From a virus (lineage: Duplodnaviria; Caudoviricetes): a DNA stretch of 56,656 nucleotides. A program made the translations under genes and the position numbers. The stretch spans positions 1 to 56,656 of IMG/VR virus record IMGVR_UViG_3300036859_000863. One strand, 5' to 3'. This document shows positions 3,107 to 34,990 of the stretch, piece by piece. The notes below the pieces were generated by a model. That model saw only the letters and a list, made by a program, of their open reading frames with translations, was not told the DNA's origin and did not search any database. How positions within the stretch are numbered: the stretch's first letter is position 1; every line of letters starts with the position of its first letter.

Positions 3107-4059
3107 AGCACCCGGCCGCAGATCGCGGCGAAGTCGGTGGCGAACCGCCCGGCGACCGACTGGTAGAGAACTTCGGCGTTGGTCTTCCAGTGGTCGTAGT
3201 CGTCGAGCACGTCGCGCAGCCGCACCTGAGGCCACACGGCGACCCACGGGTGACCGTGCCGGAACATCGACGCATTGGAGACGAGCGTCGGCCGGCGGGC
3301 GGCGATCAGATAATCGAACGCAGATGACAGGCCAGCGTCGGGCTGGCCGGGCTGGTAGAGCAGGCAGCACACGTCGCATCCGGCGAGCATGCGCACAACC
3401 TCGCCCTCGGGCACGTGGGCGACGCTCTGTTCGACACGGACACCGGGCTTCGCGGCGACCACCCGACGGGCCTCGGCGATGACCTCGGGTGCGTACAGCG
3501 GGGCGCCGTTGACGCCGTTGAAGTAGGCCTCCGGGGTGTGCAGCCAGACGATCGCCTCGTCGAGTTGGTGGGCGACCTCGGCGGCGACCTGGTCGAAGCC
3601 TTTGTGCGGGAACGCGAACCCGAACGACCCGATCACCGGCGGTTCGTTCCGGTAGCGCGACATCCCGATTGGCGTGTCGGGCAGCGGCCGGTTCACGCCG
3701 TGCACCCGGTCGTCGTCGCCGACGCCGGGTTCGAGGACGAGGACGTGGTCGAACCCGCGGGCCAGCAGCCCGTCGGCGAGCGGCCGCCACGTCGACAGCT
3801 CGTAGTTGTGGAGCACCGCCAACGTCGGGCAACCCGAGTGGGCGGGCATCAGCCACGGCATGAGGTCGGCCCGGTAGTTGACGACCACGACGTCCGGGTC
3901 GAAGCCGGCGAGGTCCCGGCGGTAGTCGTCCTCGCTGCCGCAGTCGGCGTGGGCGACGTCGAGCGGTCCCTCGGACAGGCGGGCGGCCATGCGCACGCCG
4001 AGGTCGTGGATCCCGCAGACCGGCGAGTGGGCGTGGTCGACGACCAGAACCCGAGTCAT
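3103..4059 (-). CDS. Glycosyltransferase (GT-B/GT4-like)
   Basis: MTRVLVVDH...CGIHDLG, IGSFGFAFPHKGFD, GLSSAFDYLIAARRP; ATGA-coupled to the upstream gene. Confidence 0.75.
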   Translation of the reverse strand: MTRVLVVDHAHSPVCGIHDLGVRMAARLSEGPLDVAHADCGSEDDYRRDLAGFDPDVVVVNYRADLMPWLMPAHSGCPTLAVLHNYELSTWRPLADGLLARGFDHVLVLEPGVGDDDRVHGVNRPLPDTPIGMSRYRNEPPVIGSFGFAFPHKGFDQVAAEVAHQLDEAIVWLHTPEAYFNGVNGAPLYAPEVIAEARRVVAAKPGVRVEQSVAHVPEGEVVRMLAGCDVCCLLYQPGQPDAGLSSAFDYLIAARRPTLVSNASMFRHGHPWVAVWPQVRLRDVLDDYDHWKTNAEVLYQSVAGRFATDFAAICGRVL

Positions 4060-12576: not shown

Positions 12577-12709
12577 ACTCGATCCGGCCGGCCGATAGCC
12601 GGACCTGGGATCTGGTGTGACCTCAACCTGCTGTCGACAGAAAGGCCACTCCTGTGAGCCACTCTACCCGAAACTTGTCCACAGGTAACCCGGTTGTTTG
12701 GGGACAACT

Positions 12710-12949
12710 ATGAGCGCCGACGTTGAAGCCGTCGTTCATGACGTCCGGGAATGCCTCGCTGCCATCCGCCGAGGCGTCAAAGCGCTCGCTGAATGCCAGG
12801 ATCGCGGAGAGGCCCTAGAGGTCGGCGAAGTGATAGACGCGTGCGCGGCAACTATCCAGGCCGCACTCGCTGATCCGACGACGTTGGCCGAGGTGTTTCC
12901 TGCTGCGAAGGTTTCCACAATCCTCGAAGCCTGGCAGTCAGCACGATGA
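12710..12949 (+). CDS. Hypothetical protein
   Basis: First gene of the rightward operon; ATGA overlap with the initiator gene. Confidence 0.55.
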   Translation: MSADVEAVVHDVRECLAAIRRGVKALAECQDRGEALEVGEVIDACAATIQAALADPTTLAEVFPAAKVSTILEAWQSAR

Positions 12950-13722
12950 GCACCCGAGTGCAGACATGGGTGTTCCTGAACAGCGAGGCCACGGGCAACG
13001 ACAGGCTCGTGTTGCTGGCGCTAGCCGACGAGGCCGACGACGACGGTGGCTCCTGCTACCCGTCGATTCAGCGGCTGGCGCTCAAGACCCGGTGCAACGC
13101 TCGGACGGTGCGCCGCTGCATCGAGCGGCTGGAGGCTGACGGCGCGCTTGATGTCGAGCGGGGTGGCGCCGGTCGCGGCAACGTCAACCGCTACCGCATT
13201 CTGCTGGATAAGGGGGACAATCTGTCACCCTTACCGGCGGGGATAATGGGGCCTCCAGGTGCCCCATTAGCGGCTGAGAAAAGGGGCGAAAAGGGGCGCC
13301 CAGGGGTGCACCAGACCCATAAACCCACTAATCAAAACACGCGCGTTGAACAACAAACGTTGGTTGAAGATCAAAATGCCGTGTCGAACGATCACGACGA
13401 GGACTCGATGCGGGGCTTCGACCTGTTCTGGTCGGTCTACCCGGCGCGTAACGGCCGCAAGGCAGACAAGCCGGACGCGGTCGCGAAATGGAAACGTCTC
13501 AGCCTCGATGACAAGCGGGCCGCGTATCGGGCCGCAGTGAACCTGTGCGACGCGGTGGCCCGCGGCGAGACCCTCGCCAAAGACGCCCACCGGTTCCTGA
13601 CCAACCGTCGCTGGGAGGCCTGGCTGGCGGACCCTGATCCCGCGGAGCGGCGGCGTCCCCCCTGGGTGCCGGACAACGCGGTCCCCGACGGTGACGGCGG
13701 CTGGCTCATCGAGTACGGCTGA
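12946..13722 (+). CDS. Phage replication initiator (winged-HTH N-domain)
   Basis: RLVLLALADEADDDGGSCYPSIQRLALKT...RTVRRCIERLE and FDLFWSVYP...K motifs; directly upstream of the helicase. Confidence 0.8.
   Translation: MSTRVQTWVFLNSEATGNDRLVLLALADEADDDGGSCYPSIQRLALKTRCNARTVRRCIERLEADGALDVERGGAGRGNVNRYRILLDKGDNLSPLPAGIMGPPGAPLAAEKRGEKGRPGVHQTHKPTNQNTRVEQQTLVEDQNAVSNDHDEDSMRGFDLFWSVYPARNGRKADKPDAVAKWKRLSLDDKRAAYRAAVNLCDAVARGETLAKDAHRFLTNRRWEAWLADPDPAERRRPPWVPDNAVPDGDGGWLIEYG
13209..13380. other. Probable replication origin inside initiator gene
   Basis: Inverted repeats TAAGGGGGACA/TGTCACCCTTA and TAATGGGGC/GCCCCATTA, tandem AAAAGGGGCG x2, followed by an AT-richer tract. Confidence 0.5.
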
Positions 13723-16077: not shown

Positions 16078-16370
16078 CGACCGACAACTACCGGGCGAAC
16101 CGCCCGCTGACCGCCCGGCTGGTCGCCGGCGGCGGGATCTACTGGTCGAACCGCCGGAGACGCACGGCGCGGGTGGCGGCGGGCTCGACGGCGGTCGTCT
16201 GTCACGCCTGCGAGTTCGAGCTGCACCGCCCGGACCGGCTGGGGGACGCCGAGCGGCTGCGGCGTGAGCACTTGCGGTCGGCGCACTGGCGGGAGCTGGT
16301 GGCGGGCACGGTCGTGCTGGGCGAGGCGCCGGACGACTGGGAGCAGCGCATGCTGGAAGTACTGCGTTGA
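16074..16370 (+). CDS. Hypothetical protein with CxxC
   Basis: ATGA and TTGA overlaps; CHAC...H motif. Confidence 0.5.
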   Translation: MTTDNYRANRPLTARLVAGGGIYWSNRRRRTARVAAGSTAVVCHACEFELHRPDRLGDAERLRREHLRSAHWRELVAGTVVLGEAPDDWEQRMLEVLR

Positions 16371-17056
16371 ACACCGTCACGGTCCAGCATCCCGCCAAGT
16401 TCTCGGAGCACGTCGTCTCGTCGCTGGCGCGGCTGGTGCGGGCCGAGCAGCTGCGGGTCGGCCAGCCGCTCCGGGTTCTGGACCCGTTCGCCGGTGTCGG
16501 CCGTGTGCACCGGCTGGCGCGGCCGGGACGGGTCGAGACGGTCGGGGTCGAGATCGAGTCCGAGTGGGCGGCGTGCCACCCCGACACGCTGTGCGCCGAC
16601 GCCATCGACTGGATGCGAGCCGAGGCCGCCCGACTGGCGAGCCGGTTCGACGTGATCTGTACCAGCCCGTGCTACGGGAACCGGCTGTCGGACTCGCACG
16701 ACGCCCGAGACGGGTCGGTGCGCCGCTCGTACACCCACGACCTGGGTCGCCCGGTGACCGAGGGGTCGTCGGGGGCGATGCCGTTCGGCCCGGCCTACTG
16801 GGCGTTCCACGCCGAGGCGTACCGCCTATTCCGGCGGGTGCTGCGACCGGGCGGGCTGGTGCTGCTGAACGTTTCGGACTTCGTGCGCGACAGCGAGCTG
16901 GTGCCGGCGGTGGCGTGGCATCGGGGCGCCCTGTACGGGGCGGGGTTCCGGGAGGACGGCCGGCCGGTGCTGGTGGCGACGCAGCGGCTGCGGTTCGGCG
17001 CGAACCACGCGGCGCGGGCCGAGCACGAGGTGATCGTCAGGGCGAGGGTGACGTGA
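16367..17056 (+). CDS. DNA amino-methyltransferase (N4C/N6A type)
   Basis: HPAKF, VLDPFAGVG (SAM binding), ICTSPCY (motif IV variant) and RVLRPGG. Confidence 0.8.
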   Translation: MNTVTVQHPAKFSEHVVSSLARLVRAEQLRVGQPLRVLDPFAGVGRVHRLARPGRVETVGVEIESEWAACHPDTLCADAIDWMRAEAARLASRFDVICTSPCYGNRLSDSHDARDGSVRRSYTHDLGRPVTEGSSGAMPFGPAYWAFHAEAYRLFRRVLRPGGLVLLNVSDFVRDSELVPAVAWHRGALYGAGFREDGRPVLVATQRLRFGANHAARAEHEVIVRARVT

Positions 17057-26803: not shown

Positions 26804-29778
26804 CTGTTCCCTCTGCCCTAGAAGTCCTCATCGACGCGTTGCCGCCGTTAACGCACGGTGGACAGGGTTACTACCAGGAGGCGGTAGCCAGCAACCTGCT
26901 TGATGCGCTGTCTGCTGCCGGATACGTGATCGTTCCCCGCTGGCTGCTGATCGGCTTGGTCGACTGCCACGAGTTCCCCAGTTCCGAACGGTGCGAGTTT
27001 GTGGCCGAAGCCCGCCGGACGCTGGCTCCGGAAGCGAATACAGAATGAAGGCTCCGCGCAATCCAGACGGCACACTACGGTGGTGTGATACGGAAGGCCC
27101 GCCCGAAAGCACCTACGACGATACGGTCCCAATCGTGCGCTGCGCCGAGCTATACGGCCACGACGGAGCCCACGAGAACGGCTCATGGAAGTGGCCCGCC
27201 GAGCCAGAACCGAGCACAGAATGAACCGCGTCACTAGGGTGTACTTCCCGTTTCCGTTGCGCTCCGACTTCTTGGCGGTCATAGAGATGCCCGAGCGGTT
27301 CACGGCTGAGGAGGCGGAACGTGTCTGCGCCTATGTGCGGTCATTGGCTGTTGATGAGCCGGAACCGAGCGAGCCGTGACCAAGTATCAATGCCCTCTGT
27401 GCCGAGGGCCGCACGGGTCGCAGGACTGCCCAAGCCTTGCTCCTACCGAACGTGATCTACCGGGGGTCCCAGTCGCGGAACCGAGCGAGCCGTGAGCGCC
27501 GACATCTGCCCTGTGGTCGGACAGACGTTAGAGGGCCATCACCACGGCTGTTCGCTCGGCAAGGGCCACGACGGCTACCACGTCTGTTTCAAGTGCCGAG
27601 GCACGTTCGCCGATTGGGATTGCTGGTCTGAGCCGCTAGCGAAACTGCGGGCGGTTTCTTCTACAGAGGAAGGGAACGAGCCGTGAGCGCCGAGCGCCAC
27701 CAAGACGGCGCTAAGCACACCGAACGCTGCAATCACGCCCTGTGTCCGTGCTACCTGGAAGGGATGGCAGCAGGGTTGAAGCCAACCGGGCGGGTGCTGC
27801 ATGAAGTGCTCGCGGCGGTTTCTTCTACAGAGGACCAAGACCAATGAGCTACACGACCACCCACACTCACACGATCACCGAGTTCGCCAATCCGTACTTG
27901 CGCTGCGACGTGTGCGGTCAGCCGGTCGAAGGCATGATCGCTCTAGAGGGCCAGGCCACGACCTGTAACCACAGAGGCGAACTGATCCCCTGCCGCCACC
28001 TCGGCGTCACCAGCATCTGCCCGTCGTGGAGCCCGGTTGTGGGTGTCGGCTGCCGCTGCCAAGAACATCTCGGCTACGTACCACACGCAGAGGACCAAGA
28101 CCAATGAGCGGGAGTCGTCAGAAGATCGTCAATGGCAAAGCCTTCGACTGGCCGTACACATGGCGCTGTCTTGACTGTGGCTACGTCGGCCATTCCAACT
28201 TCCACGATTTGAGCGGCCCGAACATTCATGGCACCCAGCCCGGCGTGTCCGGGTTTCTTCTACAGAGGACCAAGACCCATGAGCGTTGACTGCTGTTCAA
28301 TCGAACACCCCCATAACGGGGCACCCCCACCGGACGGCCAACACCACTGGCTGAGAGCCGTGAGCGGAGAACCAGCAACGAGCCAAGACCTCTCAGGAGA
28401 CCAAGCCGTGAGCGTTGTAGAGGCACTTGCCAAGAGTCTGTGGGAGATCGGCAACCGACGAATCGGTCACCGGCCCTGGGAGACTGTCGCTGACACCTAC
28501 CTGGCGGAAGCGCAGGAGGCGCTCGACACGTTAAGCCTGGCGGGCTACACGCTCGGAACCACTGATCTTGAAGCCGAGCTCGCCACCCTCCACACCAAGC
28601 TCAGCGATTTGCAGTTGGCTATCGCTGATACGGAGGACGACCACCACGGCGAACATACGGCGTGGAAACAGGAGATCGCCACTCTTCGCAGCATCATCCG
28701 CCGCTACCAGTCGGGATGGTTCCTGAGCGACGATTGGCCCGGCAAGTGGTGTCACAAGCGCTGGCCGAACGAGATGCAAACTCCCGATGAGGTCGCCTTC
28801 TTCGAGCAGGAAGCCGAGAACGATGCCTGACATGTTCATGGGCCCACCAACCGAACCCGTTGCCGAAGCGGCACCGATGCCGACGAACCTTGCCGCTCAC
28901 CGAGCCGCTTGGAGTGCATCCCTTGAAGAAGAATCACCAGCGGGCGAAGCTGAACGTGCCTTCTCATACATCGAGGCTCTTGAAGCCGAGAACAAGACCC
29001 TCCGCTCACAGGTGGCTGAACTTCGTGGACGGCATGGATGGCAGACAGGTGTTGGAGCAGACGGTCGCCTTCTTCCAACAGGAGGCCGGGAGGTGAGTTG
29101 GTTTGACCCACCAATGCGAGACGGGTTCTACGATCAGGAGACTGCACTGATAGCGGTGGTTGAGTTCTGGATCAAGGGTGGCCCTAGTCACTCAGATGAT
29201 TTGCCGTTCGGCCCATACAAACGACAGCTTGAAGCGGTCGAGTCGGGAGTTGAGATGCTCAAGTCCGGAAGGTGGCAGTGGTTCACGATCGAGCAAAGGC
29301 TGGTGTTGCCGTGAGCCCGTCACTGGACGAACTGCAAGTTGTTTACGAGCATGCCACCTACCCGCAGAACCTCAAGGCAGCCAAGGCGTACATCGATGCT
29401 CTCCGCCAAGCCCTAGAGGAAGCCACCGCCCGCTGCGATGAACTGATCCGACTCCACAACGAGGACTTCATCGGATCGGCACGATGGTACAGCGAGATGG
29501 TGGGGGAACGGGACGCCGCTCGGGTTGAGGTCAACCGCTTAGAGGCCGTGAACGAACGGCTACGGCACCGGCAGTGGTCGCCTCACGCGGTGGAAGAACT
29601 GCGAGCCGAGAACGAAATAGCGCATCACAACGTCGGGGCATTGCAAGCGGAAGTGTTTCAGCTTCGTTCCCTGCTCACCGAGATAGCCGCCTGTGACACC
29701 CGATCGGTCGGGGTCGGTTACACGACGCTAGAGATGACCAGCGACCTGTGGGACCGCATCCAACAAACCACGCCATGA
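26800..29778 (+). other. Lower-GC array of ~11 translationally coupled micro-genes (26800-27048, 27045-27224, 27221-27379, 27376-27495, 27492-27686, 27683-27847, 27844-28107, 28104-28289, 28279-28830, 28823-29314, 29311-29778)
   Basis: Consecutive ORFs mostly overlap by ATGA/GTGA; many are Cys/His-rich; C-termini end in repeated EPSTE/EPSEP/VSSTEDQDQ peptides. Confidence 0.75.
27028..28413 (+). repeat. Junction repeats GAACCGAGC(GAGCCGTGA) and GGTTTCTTCTACAGAGGACCAAGACCAATGAGC
   Basis: Copies start at ~27028, 27204, 27359, 27475, 27651, 27815, 28088, 28251 and (degenerate) 28394. Confidence 0.85.
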
Positions 29779-30404
29779 CTCAAAACCCCAACCCCGCACG
29801 CCAAGGCAAATGCCCCGGCACCAACCGACGCGGCGAACCATGCGGCCGCCCCGCCGGCGAAGGCACCGACTACACAGGCGTAGAAGGCGCCCTCTGCCGC
29901 TTCCACACAGGCTGCACCCCGAACGGCGAGAAACACAACCAACGACTCGCCGCCGAACAGGCCGCCGCCAAACACCGCCTGGAACTGGTCGACGTCGAAC
30001 TCCCGACCCGCGACCCCGGCGAACGGCTGCTCTGGCTGGTAGCGATGTGCTCCTGCCAGGTCGAGTTCTACGCCCGCAAGGTCCAGGAGCTCGACGACCA
30101 GCAGCTGGTGCAGGGGGTGCAGCAGATCGTCGAGACCCGCTCGGCGGCCGGCGACGTCGAGCGCCGCACGGTCGTCGGCAGCACCCCGAACGTGTGGCTG
30201 CGACTGTTGAACGACAAGCAGCGGCAGCTGGCGGAGGTGTGCCGCGACGCGATGCGGGCGGGCGTGGAGGAGCGCATGGTGCGGCTGGCGGAGCGGCAGG
30301 CGGAGACGATGGTTCGGGTGCTGCGCCTGTCGCTGGCCGAGTATGGCCTGGACGGCGCCGACGCCGACCGGGTGGTGGCGCGGCACCTGCGGGCCGTCGA
30401 ATAG
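29775..30404 (+). CDS. terS: Terminase small subunit
   Basis: C.GTNRRGEPC.RPAG.GT...G..CRFH.G.TP N-terminus; NVWLRL...AMRAGVEERMVRLAE; upstream of terL. Confidence 0.7.
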   Translation: MTQNPNPARQGKCPGTNRRGEPCGRPAGEGTDYTGVEGALCRFHTGCTPNGEKHNQRLAAEQAAAKHRLELVDVELPTRDPGERLLWLVAMCSCQVEFYARKVQELDDQQLVQGVQQIVETRSAAGDVERRTVVGSTPNVWLRLLNDKQRQLAEVCRDAMRAGVEERMVRLAERQAETMVRVLRLSLAEYGLDGADADRVVARHLRAVE

Positions 30405-30440
30405 ACCCGGCGGGGCTGCGACGCTAGTGGTAGCGTCCCC

Positions 30441-30906
30441 GGGCGTGACGCCGCCGACTGGACCCCCGCCCTCCGATCGGCCGCAGAACGCGAAGGAGGG
30501 CCGCCAGACGAACTGACGACCCTCCGACACGTCGATTTGGCACTTACAGGTGACGTGGGGAAGGTTAACACCCGCGCAAGGTCGCGACGACATCAAAGAC
30601 GCCTACGGCAAGCCGAGGGGTCACCCGATAACGCTCATGGGAAGCGACGGGAAGGGACCTGCTTACCAACCGAGCCAGCAATGCGCCGAGCGCCCTGGCC
30701 GGGAACACCGGGAGCCCACACCGTTCCAGCAGTTACTGCTGGCCAAGCCGGGACCGGCCGAAATCCGGGGAGGGTGACGCTGCGCCTGAGAGGGACGCGT
30801 TGGGGTAACGGTCGTGGTCGGAGTTTCACGAAGCTCGCCAGCGCAGACTTCCAGTCGGTCGGCTGCACCCGTTCCCGCCCAAGCGAATGGGTGCGGTCAC
30901 GCGCCC
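30441..30906 (+). ncRNA. Putative ~465-nt large structured ncRNA between terS and terL
   Basis: The 5' and 3' ends pair (GCGUGAC 30443-49 with GUCACGC 30896-902; 13-bp 30450-62 with 30850-63), with a 10-bp hairpin at 30865-94 and many internal helices. TAGCGT -10-like box at 30431-36. No credible CDS. Confidence 0.7.
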
Positions 30907-30908
30907 CT

Positions 30909-30930
30909 GTATATCCGCGTGATATACGAT
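30909..30930 (+). promoter_or_regulatory. Palindromic operator GTATATC-N5-GATATAC overlapping -10 TACGAT
   Basis: Perfect 7-bp inverted repeat; GTG start 7 nt after the -10 (leaderless RHH gene). Confidence 0.55.
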
Positions 30931-30937
30931 GGCAGTC

Positions 30938-31222
30938 GTGGCACGGAAGATGATCCAGACCCGGCTCGACGAGGCCCTCGTGACCGCGTTCGACGCCAGC
31001 GCCGAACGGCGTGGGCTGACCCGCACGGCGGCGATCGAGAAGCTGATGCGTCGCCAGGTCGAGGTCGACGCTCGCACCGACGAGTACCCGATGGACTTCG
31101 CCAAGCGACCGCCCGAGAGATTCGTCGCGGACCAGAAGCCGTCGACCTGCAGGCATCCGATCGGGCAGCGCATCGGCGACTCGTGCGCGGCGTGCGGTGC
31201 GAAGGTGTCAAAGGCGAAGTGA
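30938..31222 (+). CDS. Ribbon-helix-helix DNA-binding protein with C-terminal Zn motif
   Basis: KMIQTRLDEALVTAFDASAERRGLTRTAAIEKLMR; C.H...CAAC. Confidence 0.65.
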   Translation: MARKMIQTRLDEALVTAFDASAERRGLTRTAAIEKLMRRQVEVDARTDEYPMDFAKRPPERFVADQKPSTCRHPIGQRIGDSCAACGAKVSKAK

Positions 31223-32667
31223 CGCTGCTGCGATCGGTCGAAGAGGTGGCGGCCAATTTGCTCGACCCGCCGGCGTCCGGTCTGAACGTCGACCCGGTGC
31301 GCTGGGTGCGGGAGCGGCTACGGGCCGAGCCGTGGTCGGTGGAGGCGGAGATCCTGGAGGCGATCCGCGACCACGGGGAGGTGGCGGTGCAGTCGTGCCA
31401 CAACATCGGCAAGGACTGGACGGCGGCGGCGGCGGCGTGCTGGTGGCTGGACGTCCACAAGCCGGGCAGCGCGTTCGTGGTGTCGACGGCGCCGACGGGG
31501 CATCAGGTGAAGGCGATCCTGTGGCGGTACATCGGCCGCATGCATCGGGCCGGGGGGCTGCCGGGGCGGGTGAACCTGTCGGAGTGGTACATCGGGCCGG
31601 AGCTGGTGGGGTTCGGCCGCAAGCCGGCGGAGTACACGCCGGAGGCGTTCCAGGGGATCCACGCCCCGCACGTGCTCGTCGTATTGGACGAGGCGTCGGG
31701 CATCCCCGGGTCGCTGTGGGAGGCGTCGTCGTCGCTGACGTCGAACGAGGGCAGCCGTACTTTGGCGATCGGGAACCCGGACCGCACCGGCTCCGAGTTC
31801 TGGCGGGTGTGTCAGCCGGGGTCGGGGTGGCGGGTGATCCAGGTCGGGTTCGAGCGCACCCCGAACTTCACGGGCGAGCGGATCGCCCCGGAGCTGGCGG
31901 CCGAGCTGATCTCGCCCGGCTGGGTCGAGTCGCGCCGGGCGCGGTGGGGTGAGGAGTCGCCGCTGTTCATGGCGAAGTGCCGGGGTCTGTTCCCGGACGA
32001 CGCCGACGACGGGGTGGTGCCGGCGTCGAAGCTGGCGGTGTGCCGCCAGGAGCGGGAGGTGCCGCTGCCGGACGACGGGTCGGTGCAGCTCGGCGTAGAC
32101 GTCGGCGCGTCGGAGACGGGCGACCAGACGGTGATCCGCGAGCGCCGGGGCCGGAAGGCCGGTCGGGTGTGGCGGCTGCGGACGGGGGACAGCATGCGGA
32201 TCGTGGGCGAGGTCGTGAACGCGGTGCGCGAGTCGGGGGCGACGCTGGTGGCGGTAGACGTGATCGGCGTCGGCTTCGGGGTCGCCGGCCGGCTCACCGA
32301 GGTGCTCGCCGAGCTGCCAGAACTCAAGTGCACGGTGGTGGGCGTGAACGTAGGCGAGGCCGCCAAGCAGCCGACCCGGTTCGTACGGTTGCGGTCGGAG
32401 TTGTGGTGGGAGATCGGCCGGGAGCTGACGGTGGAGGCCGGCTGGGACCTGTCGGGGATCGACGACGACACCGCCGCCGACCTGACCGCACCCCGCTACA
32501 CGTTGGACAGCTCGGGGCGGGTGAAGGTCGAGTCGAAGGACGACGTGCGAGCACGGCTGGGGCGGTCGACGGACGACGCCGACGCGCTGCTGCTGGCGTT
32601 CTACGAGGCGTCGTCCCCTGGGCAGGTGGCGGACTCATCGATGTACGAGAGACCGCTCGGCTGGTAA
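31219..32667 (+). CDS. terL: Terminase large subunit
   Basis: VAVQSCHNIGKD (Walker A), STAPT..QV, VVLDEASG (Walker B), IGNP, LGVDVG, VDVIGVGFGV, ESKDDVRARLGRSTDDADALLLAF. Confidence 0.92.
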   Translation: MTLLRSVEEVAANLLDPPASGLNVDPVRWVRERLRAEPWSVEAEILEAIRDHGEVAVQSCHNIGKDWTAAAAACWWLDVHKPGSAFVVSTAPTGHQVKAILWRYIGRMHRAGGLPGRVNLSEWYIGPELVGFGRKPAEYTPEAFQGIHAPHVLVVLDEASGIPGSLWEASSSLTSNEGSRTLAIGNPDRTGSEFWRVCQPGSGWRVIQVGFERTPNFTGERIAPELAAELISPGWVESRRARWGEESPLFMAKCRGLFPDDADDGVVPASKLAVCRQEREVPLPDDGSVQLGVDVGASETGDQTVIRERRGRKAGRVWRLRTGDSMRIVGEVVNAVRESGATLVAVDVIGVGFGVAGRLTEVLAELPELKCTVVGVNVGEAAKQPTRFVRLRSELWWEIGRELTVEAGWDLSGIDDDTAADLTAPRYTLDSSGRVKVESKDDVRARLGRSTDDADALLLAFYEASSPGQVADSSMYERPLGW

Positions 32668-32707
32668 GACCCCTGCCGGTTGCGTCGAGGGCGTAACGTG
32701 GCAGGCG

Positions 32708-33022
32708 ATGTGGCTGACCGTGCTATTGACGTTGCTGGCGGTAGCGCGGGCGACGCGTCTGCTGACGGTTGATACGTTCCCGCCGATCGCGTCGGTCAAG
32801 GGTCGTCTGGTGCGAGCGAATGCTCCCGACTGGCTGATCTACATGTTCGGGACCGGCAAGAAGGACGAGCCCGGTTGCCCGTGGTGCGTGTCGGTGTGGC
32901 TGGCGGCGCCGGTCGTCTGGCTGGTCGACGTGCACGTCGCCGGCGGGCTGGTCGCCCCGGTGCTGGTGTGGGCGGCGAGCAGCGTGGCGGCCGGGTACAT
33001 GGTCGGTTTGGAGCCGGAGTGA
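32708..33022 (+). CDS. DUF1360-like membrane protein
   Basis: LAVARATRLLTVDT...CPWCVSVW; typical position between terL and portal. Confidence 0.7.
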   Translation: MWLTVLLTLLAVARATRLLTVDTFPPIASVKGRLVRANAPDWLIYMFGTGKKDEPGCPWCVSVWLAAPVVWLVDVHVAGGLVAPVLVWAASSVAAGYMVGLEPE

Positions 33023-33216
33023 TCGTGACGTTCCCGGTCGAGGAGGTCACCGAGCGGGGGACGGTGCGGTCGGGGTCGGTGACGTTCGAGTTCCAGGAGG
33101 GGGAGCGGATGACCGGCTGGTGGGAGTGCCCGCCGGGGCTGCGGCAGTGGGTGGTGCCGGTGTCGGTGGTGAACCTGGAGCTGACGAGACGGGAGCTGGA
33201 GGACGGCTGTGGCTGA
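33019..33216 (+). CDS. Small hypothetical protein
   Basis: GTGA coupling; fills the gap before the portal gene. Confidence 0.45.
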   Translation: MIVTFPVEEVTERGTVRSGSVTFEFQEGERMTGWWECPPGLRQWVVPVSVVNLELTRRELEDGCG

Positions 33217-34990
33217 CCGTCGGATCCGGCGCCGGGAGCAGCCGAACTCGTTCACGGCGGCGGCGCAGCTGTTGGACGCCGGGAACCGGATGGCGGTGCC
33301 GCGGGTCGAGTCGTGGCAGGACGAGGCGTGGGGCCACTACGACGACGGCGCCGAGGTGTGGTACGCGTCGGAGTGGTTCGGGAACGGCCTGTCGCGGGCC
33401 CGGCTGGTGGCGGCGAAGCGGCCGGTGTCGCCGGGCGACGAGCCGGAGGTGGTGCACGACGGCCGGCCGGCGGAGCTGGTGTCGCTGGTCGCCGGGGGGG
33501 TGACCGGGCAGTCGGCGATGCTGCAGAACGTGGGGGTGCACCTGCAGGTGCCGGGCGACAGCTACGTGACGGCGCAGACCGACGCCACCGAGACGTCGTG
33601 GATGGTGCTGTCCCCGGACGAGGTGCAGGTCGACAAGGCGGGCGGGGTCGATGTGTGGAAGGTGCAGACCGAGGAGAACGTGTGGGTGCCGTTGCCGGTG
33701 GAGTCGCACGTGATTCGGGTGTGGCGGCCGCACAAGCGGCGTCATTGGCAGGCCGACTCGCCGGTCAGACATGCGCTGGCGACGTTGCGGGAACTACGGC
33801 ACGCAAGCGAGCACATCGACGCGTCGCTGCTGTCGCGGCTGTCGGGGTTCGGGCTGTTCCTGTACCCGTCGGAGGCGGTGTTCCCGGTGAAGGAGAAGTT
33901 CGCGAACGAGCCGGACCCGTTCGCCGCCGAGTTCATGGAGGTCGCCCAGCTGGCGATCAAGAACCGGGGTTCGGCGGCGGCGCGGATCCCGCTGTTCACG
34001 CAGATGAAGGGCGAGCTGATCGGCCTGTGCCGGCACATGATGTTCGAGTCGCCGCTCGACGACAAGGCGATCGCGCTGCGGGAGGCGGCGATCCGCCGGT
34101 ACGCGACGGCGGCGGACATGCCGGGCGAGGTGCTGCTGGGGGTGGGGGACATCAACCACTGGGGGCAGTGGTTCATCGAGGACTCGGCGATCAAGATGAA
34201 CTTCGTGCCGGCGTTGGAGCTGATCGTCGACGCCCTCACCCGGGCGTACCTGCGGCCGATGCTGGAGGCGGAGGCGGCGACGGACGGAAACCGCGAGTTC
34301 GTGGCGGACGAGTGGATGGTGTGGTTCGACACGTCGGAGATGACCGCCAACCCGGACCGCTCGGACGACGCTATCGCGCTGTACGATCGGCTGGAGATCA
34401 ACGGGGCGGCGCTGCGGCGGGAGACCGGCCTGGACGAGGCGGACGCCCCGACCGACGAGGAGGTGGCGGCGCTGGCGGCCCGCAAGCTGCTGACGTCCCC
34501 GCTGACCGCGATACAGGGTTTACAGCTGCTAGGGATCGACGCCTCCGACCTAACCCCGCCGGCGTCCGCCCCGGTGGCCGCGGCGCCGCCGTCGCCGAAC
34601 GGCCAGGGCGAAGGACCGCCGGTGGGGGAGGAGCAGCCGGAGGCGACGCAGCAGATCGCGGCGTCGGTGATCGCGGCGGCGTACCCGATCGTGCACCGGG
34701 CTCTGGAGGTCGCCGGGAACCGTGCCCGCTCCAAACTGGGAGGCGCCCAGAAGCTCTCGGGAAGCCCGGCGGACTGCGCGCCGGAGCTGATGCACACGTG
34801 CGCCGACCCGGAGGTGTGCGGCGGCGCCGACTTCCTGCTGGCGGGGGCGTGGGACAAGGTCCCGACGTTGGCCGGCTACCTGGGAGTTGACCCGGAGGAT
34901 TTGACGTTGCGGCTCGACACGTTCGCCCGCACGCTGCTCGCTCGACGCACACCGCTGTCGCGTGAGGCGCTAGAGGCAGCGCTAACGTGA
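33209..34990 (+). CDS. Portal protein
   Basis: SWQDEAW..YD...E, SRARL, RVWRPH.....ADSP, SRL.G.G.L..P.E, A..LR..AIRR.A...DMP.EVLLG...NHW; position after terL. Confidence 0.85.
   Translation: MADRRIRRREQPNSFTAAAQLLDAGNRMAVPRVESWQDEAWGHYDDGAEVWYASEWFGNGLSRARLVAAKRPVSPGDEPEVVHDGRPAELVSLVAGGVTGQSAMLQNVGVHLQVPGDSYVTAQTDATETSWMVLSPDEVQVDKAGGVDVWKVQTEENVWVPLPVESHVIRVWRPHKRRHWQADSPVRHALATLRELRHASEHIDASLLSRLSGFGLFLYPSEAVFPVKEKFANEPDPFAAEFMEVAQLAIKNRGSAAARIPLFTQMKGELIGLCRHMMFESPLDDKAIALREAAIRRYATAADMPGEVLLGVGDINHWGQWFIEDSAIKMNFVPALELIVDALTRAYLRPMLEAEAATDGNREFVADEWMVWFDTSEMTANPDRSDDAIALYDRLEINGAALRRETGLDEADAPTDEEVAALAARKLLTSPLTAIQGLQLLGIDASDLTPPASAPVAAAPPSPNGQGEGPPVGEEQPEATQQIAASVIAAAYPIVHRALEVAGNRARSKLGGAQKLSGSPADCAPELMHTCADPEVCGGADFLLAGAWDKVPTLAGYLGVDPEDLTLRLDTFARTLLARRTPLSREALEAALT

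What the first reader, a model, noticed from the sequence alone, without database searches (positions are those of the whole stretch)
30441..30906. Large (~465 nt) highly structured non-coding RNA candidate inside the DNA-packaging module
Seen: a ~530-bp gap between terS and the RHH/terL genes in an otherwise tightly packed genome. The ends form a three-way junction: GCGUGAC 30443-49/GUCACGC 30896-902; GCCGCCGACUGGA 30450-62/UCCAGUCGGUCGGC 30850-63 (13 bp, one bulge); hairpin GCACCCGUUC 30865-74/GAAUGGGUGC 30885-94. Nested helices: GCCCUCC 30468-74/GGAGGGC 30495-501; long-range ACCCUCC 30519-25/GGAGGGU 30769-75; CACGUC 30528-33/GACGUG 30552-57; CGGC-AA-GCCG 30606-15; GCCAG 30674-78/CUGGC 30695-99; CCAGCAG-UUA-CUGCUGG 30726-42; CUGCGC 30780-85/GCGCAG 30841-46; GAGUUU-CACG-AAGCUC 30821-36. 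A -10-like TAGCGT inside the palindrome GACGCTA-N4-TAGCGTC ends a few nt before the 5' helix, and a separate promoter follows the 3' end, so it looks like a self-contained RNA gene. I see no tmRNA, RNase P or group I/II intron signatures. Established: phages encode large RNAs (phi29 pRNA, GOLLD, ROOL). Inference: a possibly new class of large phage ncRNA, perhaps linked to packaging/assembly or anti-defence. This is my best candidate for an undescribed system in this window.
Basis: partly seen in the sequence, partly recalled or inferred. Interest (0 to 1): 0.88.

Follow-up and report, generated by a model that had tools for sequence, protein, structure and literature searches.

The report
Orphan non-coding insert before phage terminase
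A 460-base stretch with no gene, closed by matching ends, sits between two DNA-packaging genes of one uncultured soil phage; nothing like it was found anywhere else, so it may make an RNA but cannot yet be called a new RNA family.

Summary
The gap is real. Bases 30405-30928 lie between a terS-like gene and an RHH gene plus terL. They show no codon periodicity and no protein or Pfam match in any frame. The ensemble strongly favours only six, including the closing stem. Three have pairing probability 0.05 or less.

The claim of a highly structured new RNA class is not supported. Rfam and ARAGORN find nothing. The fold z-score is -2.0 to -2.4 on both strands, and 2 of 38 other 460-nt windows of the contig score -2.1 or lower. 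Helices like the 13-bp closing stem occur 23 times in the contig. No homologue turned up in 80 related loci, the phage and plasmid collections, three draws of 401 Actinomycetota genomes, or an exact 18-mer scan of IMG/VR. The closest syntenic relative (terL 61%) has only 112 nt at this site.

The element is therefore a singleton accessory insert. It sits between a hairpin that carries a TGG-extended -10 and the RHH gene's own conserved leaderless promoter and operator. My best guess, at low confidence, is a moron-like unit that makes a non-coding RNA. Neutral leftover DNA is nearly as likely.

The parts
29748..30404 (+). terS-like gene (218 aa, N-terminal Cys/His motif); its role as small terminase is not established
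   Evidence: It matches phrog_3678 (unknown function, E 2.4e-22) and no Pfam family. Homologues in Arthrobacter, Glutamicibacter and Brevibacterium phages are annotated as hypothetical. In 9 of 14 distinct related loci with a detectable homologue, its match ends within 150 nt of terL.
30407..30442 (+). Hairpin 1 directly after the stop codon. It contains the perfect palindrome GACGCTA-N4-TAGCGTC (30420-30437) and the TGG-extended -10-like hexamer TAGCGT (30431-30436).
   Evidence: The MFE fold pairs this stretch. The palindrome is unique at 0 mismatches. TAGCGT is one of only two TANNNT hexamers on the + strand in 30380-30960. The closest relative L015 has an 11-bp hairpin at the equivalent place.
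30443..30902 (+). The 460-nt non-coding element, absent from relatives
   Evidence: Codon-phase GC is flat. There is no protein or Pfam match in any frame, no Rfam match, and no homologue anywhere searched.
30443..30462 (+). 5' arm of the closing stem (H1 30443-30449 and H2 30450-30462)
   Evidence: It pairs with 30896-30902 and 30850-30863. Pairing probability is 0.83-1.00, except the innermost pair at 0.34.
30850..30902 (+). 3' arm of the closing stem (30850-30863 and 30896-30902), interrupted by hairpin H3 (30865-30894; 10 bp with one G.U pair)
   Evidence: H3 pairing probability is 0.82-1.00.
30909..30927 (+). Palindrome GTATATC-N5-GATATAC, a probable operator of the RHH protein that overlaps its promoter
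   Evidence: It is the only match in the window even with 3 mismatches allowed, and the half-site occurs nowhere else. L015 has a different palindrome at the same place before its RHH gene.
30925..30930 (+). -10-like hexamer TACGAT, 7 nt before GTG 30938 (leaderless start of the RHH gene)
   Evidence: L015 shows the same TACGNT-N7-GTG layout. Its RHH protein aligns from that start.
30938..31222 (+). RHH (CopG-like) gene with a C-terminal Cys motif; its stop overlaps the terL start
   Evidence: Pfam RHH_1 gives E 0.0032, below the curated cutoff. Homologues at 52-53% identity are P0008 and L015.
31222..32667 (+). Terminase large subunit
   Evidence: phrog_2 terminase large subunit, E 1.6e-25. 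tblastn finds annotated terminases in Streptomyces and Arthrobacter phages.

Best explanation
The 460-nt element (30443-30902) is a lineage-specific, non-coding accessory insert of the moron type. It lies at a variable junction of the packaging module, between the hairpin that ends the terS-like gene and the promoter and operator of the RHH-terL operon.

Inferred mechanism, not shown: host RNA polymerase starts about 7 nt after the TGG-extended -10 (TGGTAGCGT) that sits in the palindrome of hairpin 1. The transcript folds so that its first 20 nt pair with its last 50 nt, with hairpin H3 emerging at the junction. This closed end protects the RNA and stops or insulates transcription ahead of the separately controlled RHH promoter. 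What the RNA does after that is unknown.

Shown: the stretch is non-coding, it has the named pairings, it is absent from relatives, and it is flanked by the two -10-like hexamers.
For: Non-coding status:
- Codon-phase GC is flat.
- Two + strand ORFs have 0 Pfam and 0 PHROG families.
- Ten six-frame pieces have 0 Pfam families at E<=1.
- The 86-aa frame has 0 hits among 1.84 billion protein representatives.
- The 182-aa frame has 0 tblastn hits in phages at E<=1.

Position:
- The closest syntenic relative L015 (terL 61%, RHH 52%, terS-like 40%) has only 112 nt here, made up of one hairpin and an operator palindrome.
- Other relatives have nothing there (L002) or a lysis cassette (L011). The site therefore accepts accessory DNA.

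Transcription signals:
- Only two TANNNT hexamers lie on the + strand in 580 nt. One ends 6 nt before the closing stem and is TGG-extended. The other is 7 nt before the RHH start, a layout shared with L015.

Structure:
- The closing stem and H3 have pairing probability 0.8 or higher.
- The two imperfect helices H3 and H11 carry G.U pairs that would be A.C mismatches on the other strand.

Precedent:
- Intergenic non-coding regions are the most highly transcribed loci of Rhodococcus phage WC1. Similar RNAs are reported at the ends of mycobacteriophage genomes (PMC10986025; section 17 and discussion passages read).
Against: - No homologue exists, so there is no covariation.
- The complete closest relative (record G403, direct terminal repeats, 56,623 bp) has no copy anywhere.
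- The fold z-scores of -2.0 to -2.4 are matched by 2 of 38 background windows, and the minus strand folds as well.
- H2-like helices are common in the contig, with 23 found.
- The consensus scan found 0 sigma-70-type promoters and 0 U-tract terminators in 30200-31100. That scan uses an E. coli-type consensus.
- The -10-like hexamer is half of a palindrome and may exist for that reason alone.
- No expression data exist.
Confidence: 0.36

Rival explanations
1. Neutral leftover DNA. A fragment was picked up by illegitimate recombination, or is a decayed gene, at a junction that tolerates insertions. It has not yet been deleted and has no function of its own. The predicted fold is what 67%-GC sequence gives.
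For: It is a singleton in everything searched. Its z-score lies within the contig's background and is equal on both strands. Long-range 13-bp helices are common. The junction differs between relatives: nothing, a lysis cassette, RHH plus a small ORF, or other genes.
Against: No trace of a protein remains in any frame. Phage genomes seldom keep 460 bp of useless DNA (general knowledge). The closing stem brackets the stretch almost exactly and is met by a -10-like hexamer at the right distance.
Confidence: 0.32
2. A DNA-level packaging site (cos or pac, with terminase-binding sequences). It would lie just upstream of the RHH gene, which would then be the true small terminase coupled to terL.
For: The RHH stop overlaps the terL start, the usual terS-terL coupling. 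The order non-coding region, small DNA-binding protein, terL, portal is the canonical layout of cos phages (recalled from lambda). A unique palindrome lies before the RHH gene. Arthrobacter and Glutamicibacter phages with a terS-like homologue also have 500-835-bp gaps upstream of terL.
Against: The sister phage L015 manages with 112 nt at this place and has an extra ORF between RHH and terL. The gap has no repeated binding-site motifs beyond chance. Contigs from two assemblies run straight through it, although that does not exclude a cos site.
Confidence: 0.12
3. A non-autonomous miniature mobile element (MITE- or MPME-like) whose 20-bp terminal inverted repeats are the 'closing stem'.
For: The size is 460 bp and the ends are inverted repeats. 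It is present in this phage and absent at the same site in the relative. Ultra-small 439-bp mobile elements with inverted repeats are known in mycobacteriophages (PMC3029335; passages read).
Against: No second copy exists in the window or in the phage or plasmid collections. None was found in three draws of 401 Actinomycetota genomes, which gave only 26-62-nt GC-rich chance matches on either strand. The exact 18-mer of the left arm occurs in 4 IMG/VR loci, none of which has the element. The right repeat is split by a 31-nt hairpin. No clear target-site duplication is visible.
Confidence: 0.08
4. It encodes one or more small orphan proteins, for example the 75-aa ORF 30550-30777 or the 23-aa leaderless ORF from GTG 30445.
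For: The frame of 30517-30777 has the highest third-position GC of the three phases, about 0.73. GTG 30445 lies 8 nt after the -10-like hexamer. The frame after the terS-like TAG stop stays open for 182 codons.
Against: The 86-aa frame has 0 hits among 1.84 billion representatives. There are 0 Pfam or PHROG families. GC3 is far below the 0.85-0.95 of neighbouring genes. The translations are Arg/Gly/Pro-rich, with no hydrophobic core. No Shine-Dalgarno motif lies at a proper distance from a start codon (read).
Confidence: 0.05

Closest known systems
Highly transcribed intergenic non-coding regions of actinophages (Rhodococcus phage WC1 nc_1 to nc_3; ncRNAs at the genome ends of mycobacteriophages D29 and Kampy)
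   Same: They are non-coding stretches between genes of high-GC actinophages, next to the structural and packaging arm, with unknown function (PMC10986025; section 17 and discussion passages read).
   Different: Those are shown to be transcribed, and the paper describes similar RNAs in other phages. This element has no expression data and no relative. No sequence comparison with WC1 alone was made, but blastn of the gap against the phage collection found nothing.
Morons (independent promoter-gene-terminator units inserted between phage genes; recalled concept)
   Same: It is present in one phage and absent at the same junction in its relative. It sits between a hairpin and the next promoter, and it has its own -10-like hexamer.
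   Different: It carries no protein gene. The promoter and terminator are inferred from sequence only, and the consensus scan found neither.
MPME1/MPME2 ultra-small mobile elements of mycobacteriophages
   Same: Size is similar (439 bp versus 460 bp). Both have inverted repeats at the ends and a presence/absence polymorphism between related phages (PMC3029335 passages).
   Different: It has no nucleotide similarity to anything in the phage collection, no other copy anywhere, and no ORF with a homologue.
   Same: Only the length range and the phage setting are shared.
   Different: No Rfam family reaches its gathering score in the whole window. At E<=10 the only hits in 30300-31000 are two short minus-strand chance hits, to a togavirus frameshift element and to mir-281. 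ARAGORN finds no tRNA or tmRNA. That these families are in Rfam 15 is recalled, not checked.
Conserved about 150-nt structured motif in the non-coding gap upstream of terL in Arthrobacter phages (TripleJ, Kukla, Richie, Isolde, Persistence, Faja, Auxilium, Hestia), found here
   Same: It lies in a long non-coding gap between a DNA-binding-protein gene and terL. TripleJ and Kukla also carry a homologue of the terS-like gene.
   Different: That motif is conserved in 34 records and has compensatory changes in 6 of 35 predicted pairs. A covariance model built from it scores only 3.6 bits on one hairpin inside the window's element. It finds nothing in 79 other loci.

Membership tests
Any Rfam 15 family (including RNase P RNA, tmRNA, group I/II introns, and phage RNAs such as pRNA, GOLLD and ROOL if present in the release) | Covariance-model score at or above the family's gathering threshold | tested here: not met
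   There are 0 matches in the whole window at gathering thresholds. At E<=10 in 30300-31000 there are only two minus-strand hits of 19-20 bits, against gathering scores of 40 and 70.
tmRNA / tRNA-like RNA | tRNA-like acceptor and T-arm detectable by ARAGORN | tested here: not met
   ARAGORN finds 0 genes in the window.
   No homologue was found in any of these searches:
- 80 related loci, about 615 kb, by blastn and nhmmer
- the phage collection
- the plasmid collection
- five related virus records searched whole
- three draws of 401 genomes
- earlier scan notes, by sequence
   z is -2.0 to -2.4 on both strands. Of 38 background windows, 2 score -2.1 or lower.
   The only sequencing run holding the stretch is a DNA run, and it may be the source sample.
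MPME-like or MITE-like mobile element | Several copies at independent sites | tested here: not met
   The window holds one copy. None was found elsewhere.
MPME-like or MITE-like mobile element | Terminal inverted repeats and presence/absence at a precise site | tested here: inconclusive
   Inverted ends of 7 + 13 bp exist, but the right one is split by a 31-nt hairpin. The relative L015 lacks the element, but it is too diverged to define an empty site base by base.
Moron | Absent from related genomes at the same junction; own promoter and terminator | tested here: inconclusive
   Absence is shown. The -10-like hexamer and terminal hairpins are seen in the sequence but are not confirmed by the consensus scan or by any expression data.
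Diversity-generating retroelement template repeat | A second, near-identical variable repeat in a target gene | tested here: not met
   The 524-nt query matches only itself in the record.
cos/pac packaging site | Virion DNA ends or the packaging series start here | not testable with these tools
   Only assembled contigs are available, and they run through the region.

The most novel reading that the evidence does not exclude
The element is a functional, stand-alone, roughly 460-nt structured RNA expressed from its own regulated promoter, the palindrome that overlaps a TGG-extended -10. It would be an 'RNA moron' of an uncultured soil actinophage and the first seen member of a large phage ncRNA family that current databases do not yet sample.
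Probability: 0.15. Interest if true: 0.6.

Novelty: new member of a known kind. Interest (0 to 1): 0.3.

Why it matters
If the element makes a stable RNA, it would add an RNA-only accessory unit to the known cargo that phages carry at variable junctions, here right at the boundary between early genes and the packaging operon. As it stands it is one sequence in one metagenomic contig. It opens no long-standing question and cannot be tested by comparison.

The session's practical outputs are four:
- The 'new class' claim should not be carried forward on fold predictions alone.
- The terS-like/terL junction is a hot spot for accessory DNA in this phage group.
- The RHH gene has a conserved leaderless promoter plus operator layout.
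- A separate, conserved and covarying non-coding motif exists upstream of terL in Arthrobacter phages. It is the better candidate for follow-up.

Tried and rejected
Known RNA families. Rfam at gathering thresholds over the whole window gave 0 matches. The permissive scan of 30300-31000 gave two chance hits. ARAGORN gave 0.

Homology by DNA.
- The phage collection in distant mode gave nothing, and the plasmid collection gave nothing.
- blastn and nhmmer against 80 fetched loci gave only 16-21-nt matches.
- Five related virus records searched whole gave only matches of 14-29 nt at E>=0.019.
- Three draws of 401 Actinomycetota genomes gave 8, 1 and 4 genomes with short matches. One of the 8, G090, is unpublished, and nothing rests on it. 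All matches were 26-62 nt, GC-rich, on either strand and not alike outside the match. I read them as chance.
- The exact 18-mer of the left arm in IMG/VR gave 4 loci. Two share 22 nt inside what looks like a reverse-strand gene. None has the right arm.
- Earlier scan notes searched by sequence gave nothing.

Homology through neighbouring genes. The terS-like protein gave no relative in viral contigs. terL gave 1, then 5, 2 and 66 loci. The RHH alignment gave L015. None of these loci carries the element.

Coding tests. All were negative. The 182-codon open frame after the TAG stop of the terS-like gene has no coding periodicity, and the window has no tRNA. I rejected stop-codon read-through.

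Sequencing runs. One DNA run holds the stretch, it may be the source, and no RNA holder is listed. Its contig of 55,110 nt covers 28000-33500 with 0 differences and no joint across the element. This shows only that a second assembly of the same data agrees.

Statistics that did not work. A duplex-energy statistic on the first and last 150 nt was uninformative: 202 of 1000 shuffles were as good. The crude periodicity and gene-call scans were too noisy to rank gaps.

Arthrobacter-phage motif model R1. It does not match the element. Its best window hit (3591-3741, 19 bits) shares none of the motif's invariant stretches and lies in what reads as a reverse-strand gene. I rejected it.

Supplementary files of papers were not opened. 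Figures S2 and S6 of PMC10986025 may show more about its non-coding regions.

Full report
SETTING. The window is one IMG/VR virus record of 56,656 bp. It is classed as linear, with completeness estimated at 74%, and its GC content is 69.6%. The finding lies where a long run of + strand early or middle genes meets the structural genes. In order, the region holds:
- a 218-aa gene at 29748-30404;
- a gap;
- a 94-97-aa ribbon-helix-helix gene ending at 31222;
- terL at 31222-32667.

It matches only phrog_3678, of unknown function, and no Pfam family. Its homologues in isolated phages are annotated as hypothetical. In 9 of 14 distinct related loci with a detectable homologue, the match ends within 150 nt of terL. 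A terS role is therefore plausible by position but is not shown.

THE OBSERVATION. The gap is 524 nt, from 30405 to 30928. It is 533 nt if the RHH gene starts at GTG 30938, as the alignment with its homologue suggests. GC by codon phase is flat across the gap at 0.5-0.8, whereas the flanking genes reach 0.9-1.0 in one phase.

Eight are perfect, H2 has one bulged base, and H3 and H11 each have one G.U pair. In the Boltzmann ensemble of 30405-30928 they fall into three groups:
- The closing stem (H1 and H2), the 3' hairpin H3, and H7, H8 and H11 have pairing probabilities mostly 0.8 or higher.
- H6 and H9 have about 0.6-0.75.
- H4, H5 and H10 have 0.05 or less, because the two CCCUCC and the two GGAGGG runs prefer to pair the other way round.

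IS IT MORE THAN CHANCE? Only weakly.
- Against dinucleotide shuffles, the z-score is -2.02 on the + strand and -2.15 on the - strand for 524 nt. It is -2.42 and -2.38 for the 460 nt cut at the closing stem. That cut favours the native sequence.
- I folded 38 other 460-nt windows spaced along the contig, with 25 shuffles each. The run stopped at 42.5 kb for time. They gave z from -2.31 to +2.53, and 2 of the 38 scored -2.1 or lower.
- Inverted repeats of 13 bp or more with at most one bulge, 100-600 nt apart, occur 23 times in the contig, and H2 is one of them.
- What is less usual is that a 7-bp perfect helix extends H2 directly on the 5' side, and that the combined stem brackets the non-coding stretch almost exactly. 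My rough estimate from base frequencies puts this below about 1 in 100 for this gap. That estimate is post hoc.
- The minus strand folds as well as the plus strand, and its centroid lies closer to its MFE. The only strand hint is the two G.U pairs in H3 and H11.

NOT CODING. Two + strand ORFs (75 and 138 aa) have no Pfam or PHROG family. Ten further six-frame pieces have none at E<=1. The 86-aa frame with the highest third-position GC has no relative among 1.84 billion protein representatives. The frame that continues from the TAG stop of the upstream gene stays open for 182 codons. It has no coding periodicity and no tblastn match in phages at E<=1.

NOT A KNOWN RNA. No Rfam family reaches its threshold anywhere in the window. 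The permissive scan gives two short minus-strand chance hits. ARAGORN finds nothing.

NO RELATIVE. The element matched nothing in any of these searches:
- the phage collection or the plasmid collection;
- 80 loci, about 615 kb, fetched around terL and RHH homologues, by blastn and nhmmer;
- five related virus records searched whole;
- earlier notes of this scan, by sequence.

Three draws of 401 Actinomycetota genomes gave only 26-62-nt GC-rich matches on either strand, with unrelated flanks. The exact 18-mer of the left arm occurs in four IMG/VR loci, none of which carries the element. Only one sequencing run holds the stretch. It is a DNA run and may be the source. Its own contig agrees base for base.

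WHAT THE RELATIVES SHOW. The closest relative is L015, in record G403 of 56,623 bp with direct terminal repeats. Its identities to the window are terL 61%, RHH 52%, the terS-like gene 40% and the gene before that 42%. It is syntenic, but its terS-like to RHH spacer is only 112 nt. That spacer holds an 11-bp hairpin and a palindrome, followed by TACGCT-N7-GTG.

The window has the same three features. Hairpin 1 lies at 30407-30442. The unique palindrome GTATATC-N5-GATATAC lies at 30909-30927. TACGAT-N7-GTG follows. The 460-nt element sits between the hairpin and the palindrome.

Other relatives differ at this junction. In L002 the terS-like gene runs into terL. L011 holds an amidase and a membrane-protein gene, which I read as a lysis cassette. 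L015 has an extra 89-aa ORF after its RHH gene. Five of 14 loci have 300 nt or more between the two genes. The junction therefore collects accessory DNA, and the element is one such accessory, seen once.

MOST LIKELY READING. The RHH gene has its own conserved leaderless promoter and a probable operator, so the element is not needed as its leader. On the + strand only two TANNNT hexamers occur in 580 nt. One serves the RHH gene. The other, preceded by TGG, ends 6 nt before the first base of the closing stem and lies in a perfect palindrome.

This is the layout of a small independent transcription unit inserted between a hairpin and the next promoter, that is, a moron without a protein gene. 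I put 0.36 on a unit that makes a non-coding RNA whose paired ends stabilise it and insulate the two operons. The transcription start, the end and any function are inferences.

Highly transcribed intergenic non-coding regions are documented in actinophages (PMC10986025; section 17 and passages read). That makes the reading ordinary rather than exotic.

RIVALS.
- Neutral leftover DNA (0.32). This fits the singleton status and the unremarkable folding statistics.
- A packaging site upstream of an RHH-type small terminase (0.12). This fits the gene order and the overlapping RHH stop and terL start, but the sister phage does without the extra DNA.
- A miniature mobile element (0.08). This fits the size and the inverted ends and has a precedent in MPMEs (PMC3029335 passages). 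No second copy exists anywhere searched.
- A small orphan protein (0.05). No support was found.

SIDE FINDING. Arthrobacter phages TripleJ and Kukla and Glutamicibacter phage BIM BV-113 carry a homologue of the terS-like gene. They also have 500-835-bp stretches without annotated genes upstream of terL.

Between TripleJ and Kukla this stretch is 97.3% identical over 482 nt. The terS-like gene is 87% identical, and the genes in between do not align. Its 3' 130-190 nt recur at 73-81% identity in about 30 further Arthrobacter phage records near the right genome end, often after a tRNA gene.

An alignment of eight phages gives four helices. Compensatory changes are seen in 6 of 35 predicted pairs. 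Rfam has no match over it at E<=1. A covariance model built from it does not match the window's element, and it matches none of 79 other loci at E<=0.01. This motif is unrelated to the finding, but it is a better-supported candidate RNA.

VERDICT. The sequence facts hold. 'Highly structured' and 'new class' do not. The element is a real, orphan, non-coding accessory insert at a variable junction of the packaging module. It may be transcribed, and its function is unknown. Interest is 0.3.

Noticed in passing
L003:2295-2771 (Arthrobacter phage TripleJ) and L007:4841-5322 (Kukla); core motif L003:2626-2774: A non-coding block upstream of terL is 97.3% identical between two phages whose neighbouring terS-like gene is only 87% identical. 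Its 3' part is conserved in 34 Arthrobacter phage records. An 8-sequence alignment gives four helices with compensatory changes in 6 of 35 predicted pairs, and Rfam has no match. It is a candidate conserved phage RNA, or a packaging signal.
   Followed up: partly
L003:2510-2569: TripleJ's gap holds a T-loop-like stretch. It gives a weak Rfam hit to a permuted tmRNA model (16.8 bits, E 0.019) but no ARAGORN call. Related phages (Richie, Isolde, Faja, Hestia) have annotated tRNA genes about 150-200 nt before the conserved motif.
   Followed up: partly
window 30909-30940 and L015:3974-4012: The RHH genes of both phages are preceded by a different perfect palindrome whose right half overlaps a TACGNT hexamer 7 nt before a GTG start. 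The layout suggests a conserved leaderless promoter and auto-operator, with diverged specificity.
   Followed up: partly
window 30405-30953: The reading frame of the terS-like gene stays open for 182 codons after its TAG stop, across the whole gap. There is no coding periodicity, no homologue and no tRNA in the window, so I read this as chance in GC-rich DNA.
   Followed up: yes
L011:2674-3890: In the relative with 60% terL identity, an amidase with a peptidoglycan-binding-like tail and a membrane protein lie between the terS-like gene and terL. I read this as a lysis cassette, from the translations alone. That is an unusual place for lysis genes.
   Followed up: no
window 30468-30525 and 30769-30775: Two CCCUCC runs and two GGAGGG runs can pair in two mutually exclusive ways. 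This could be a switch, or it could be chance.
   Followed up: partly
window 12651-13110 and 16101-16560: These two 460-nt windows have fold z-scores of -2.14 and -2.31, as low as the finding. I did not look at what they contain.
   Followed up: no
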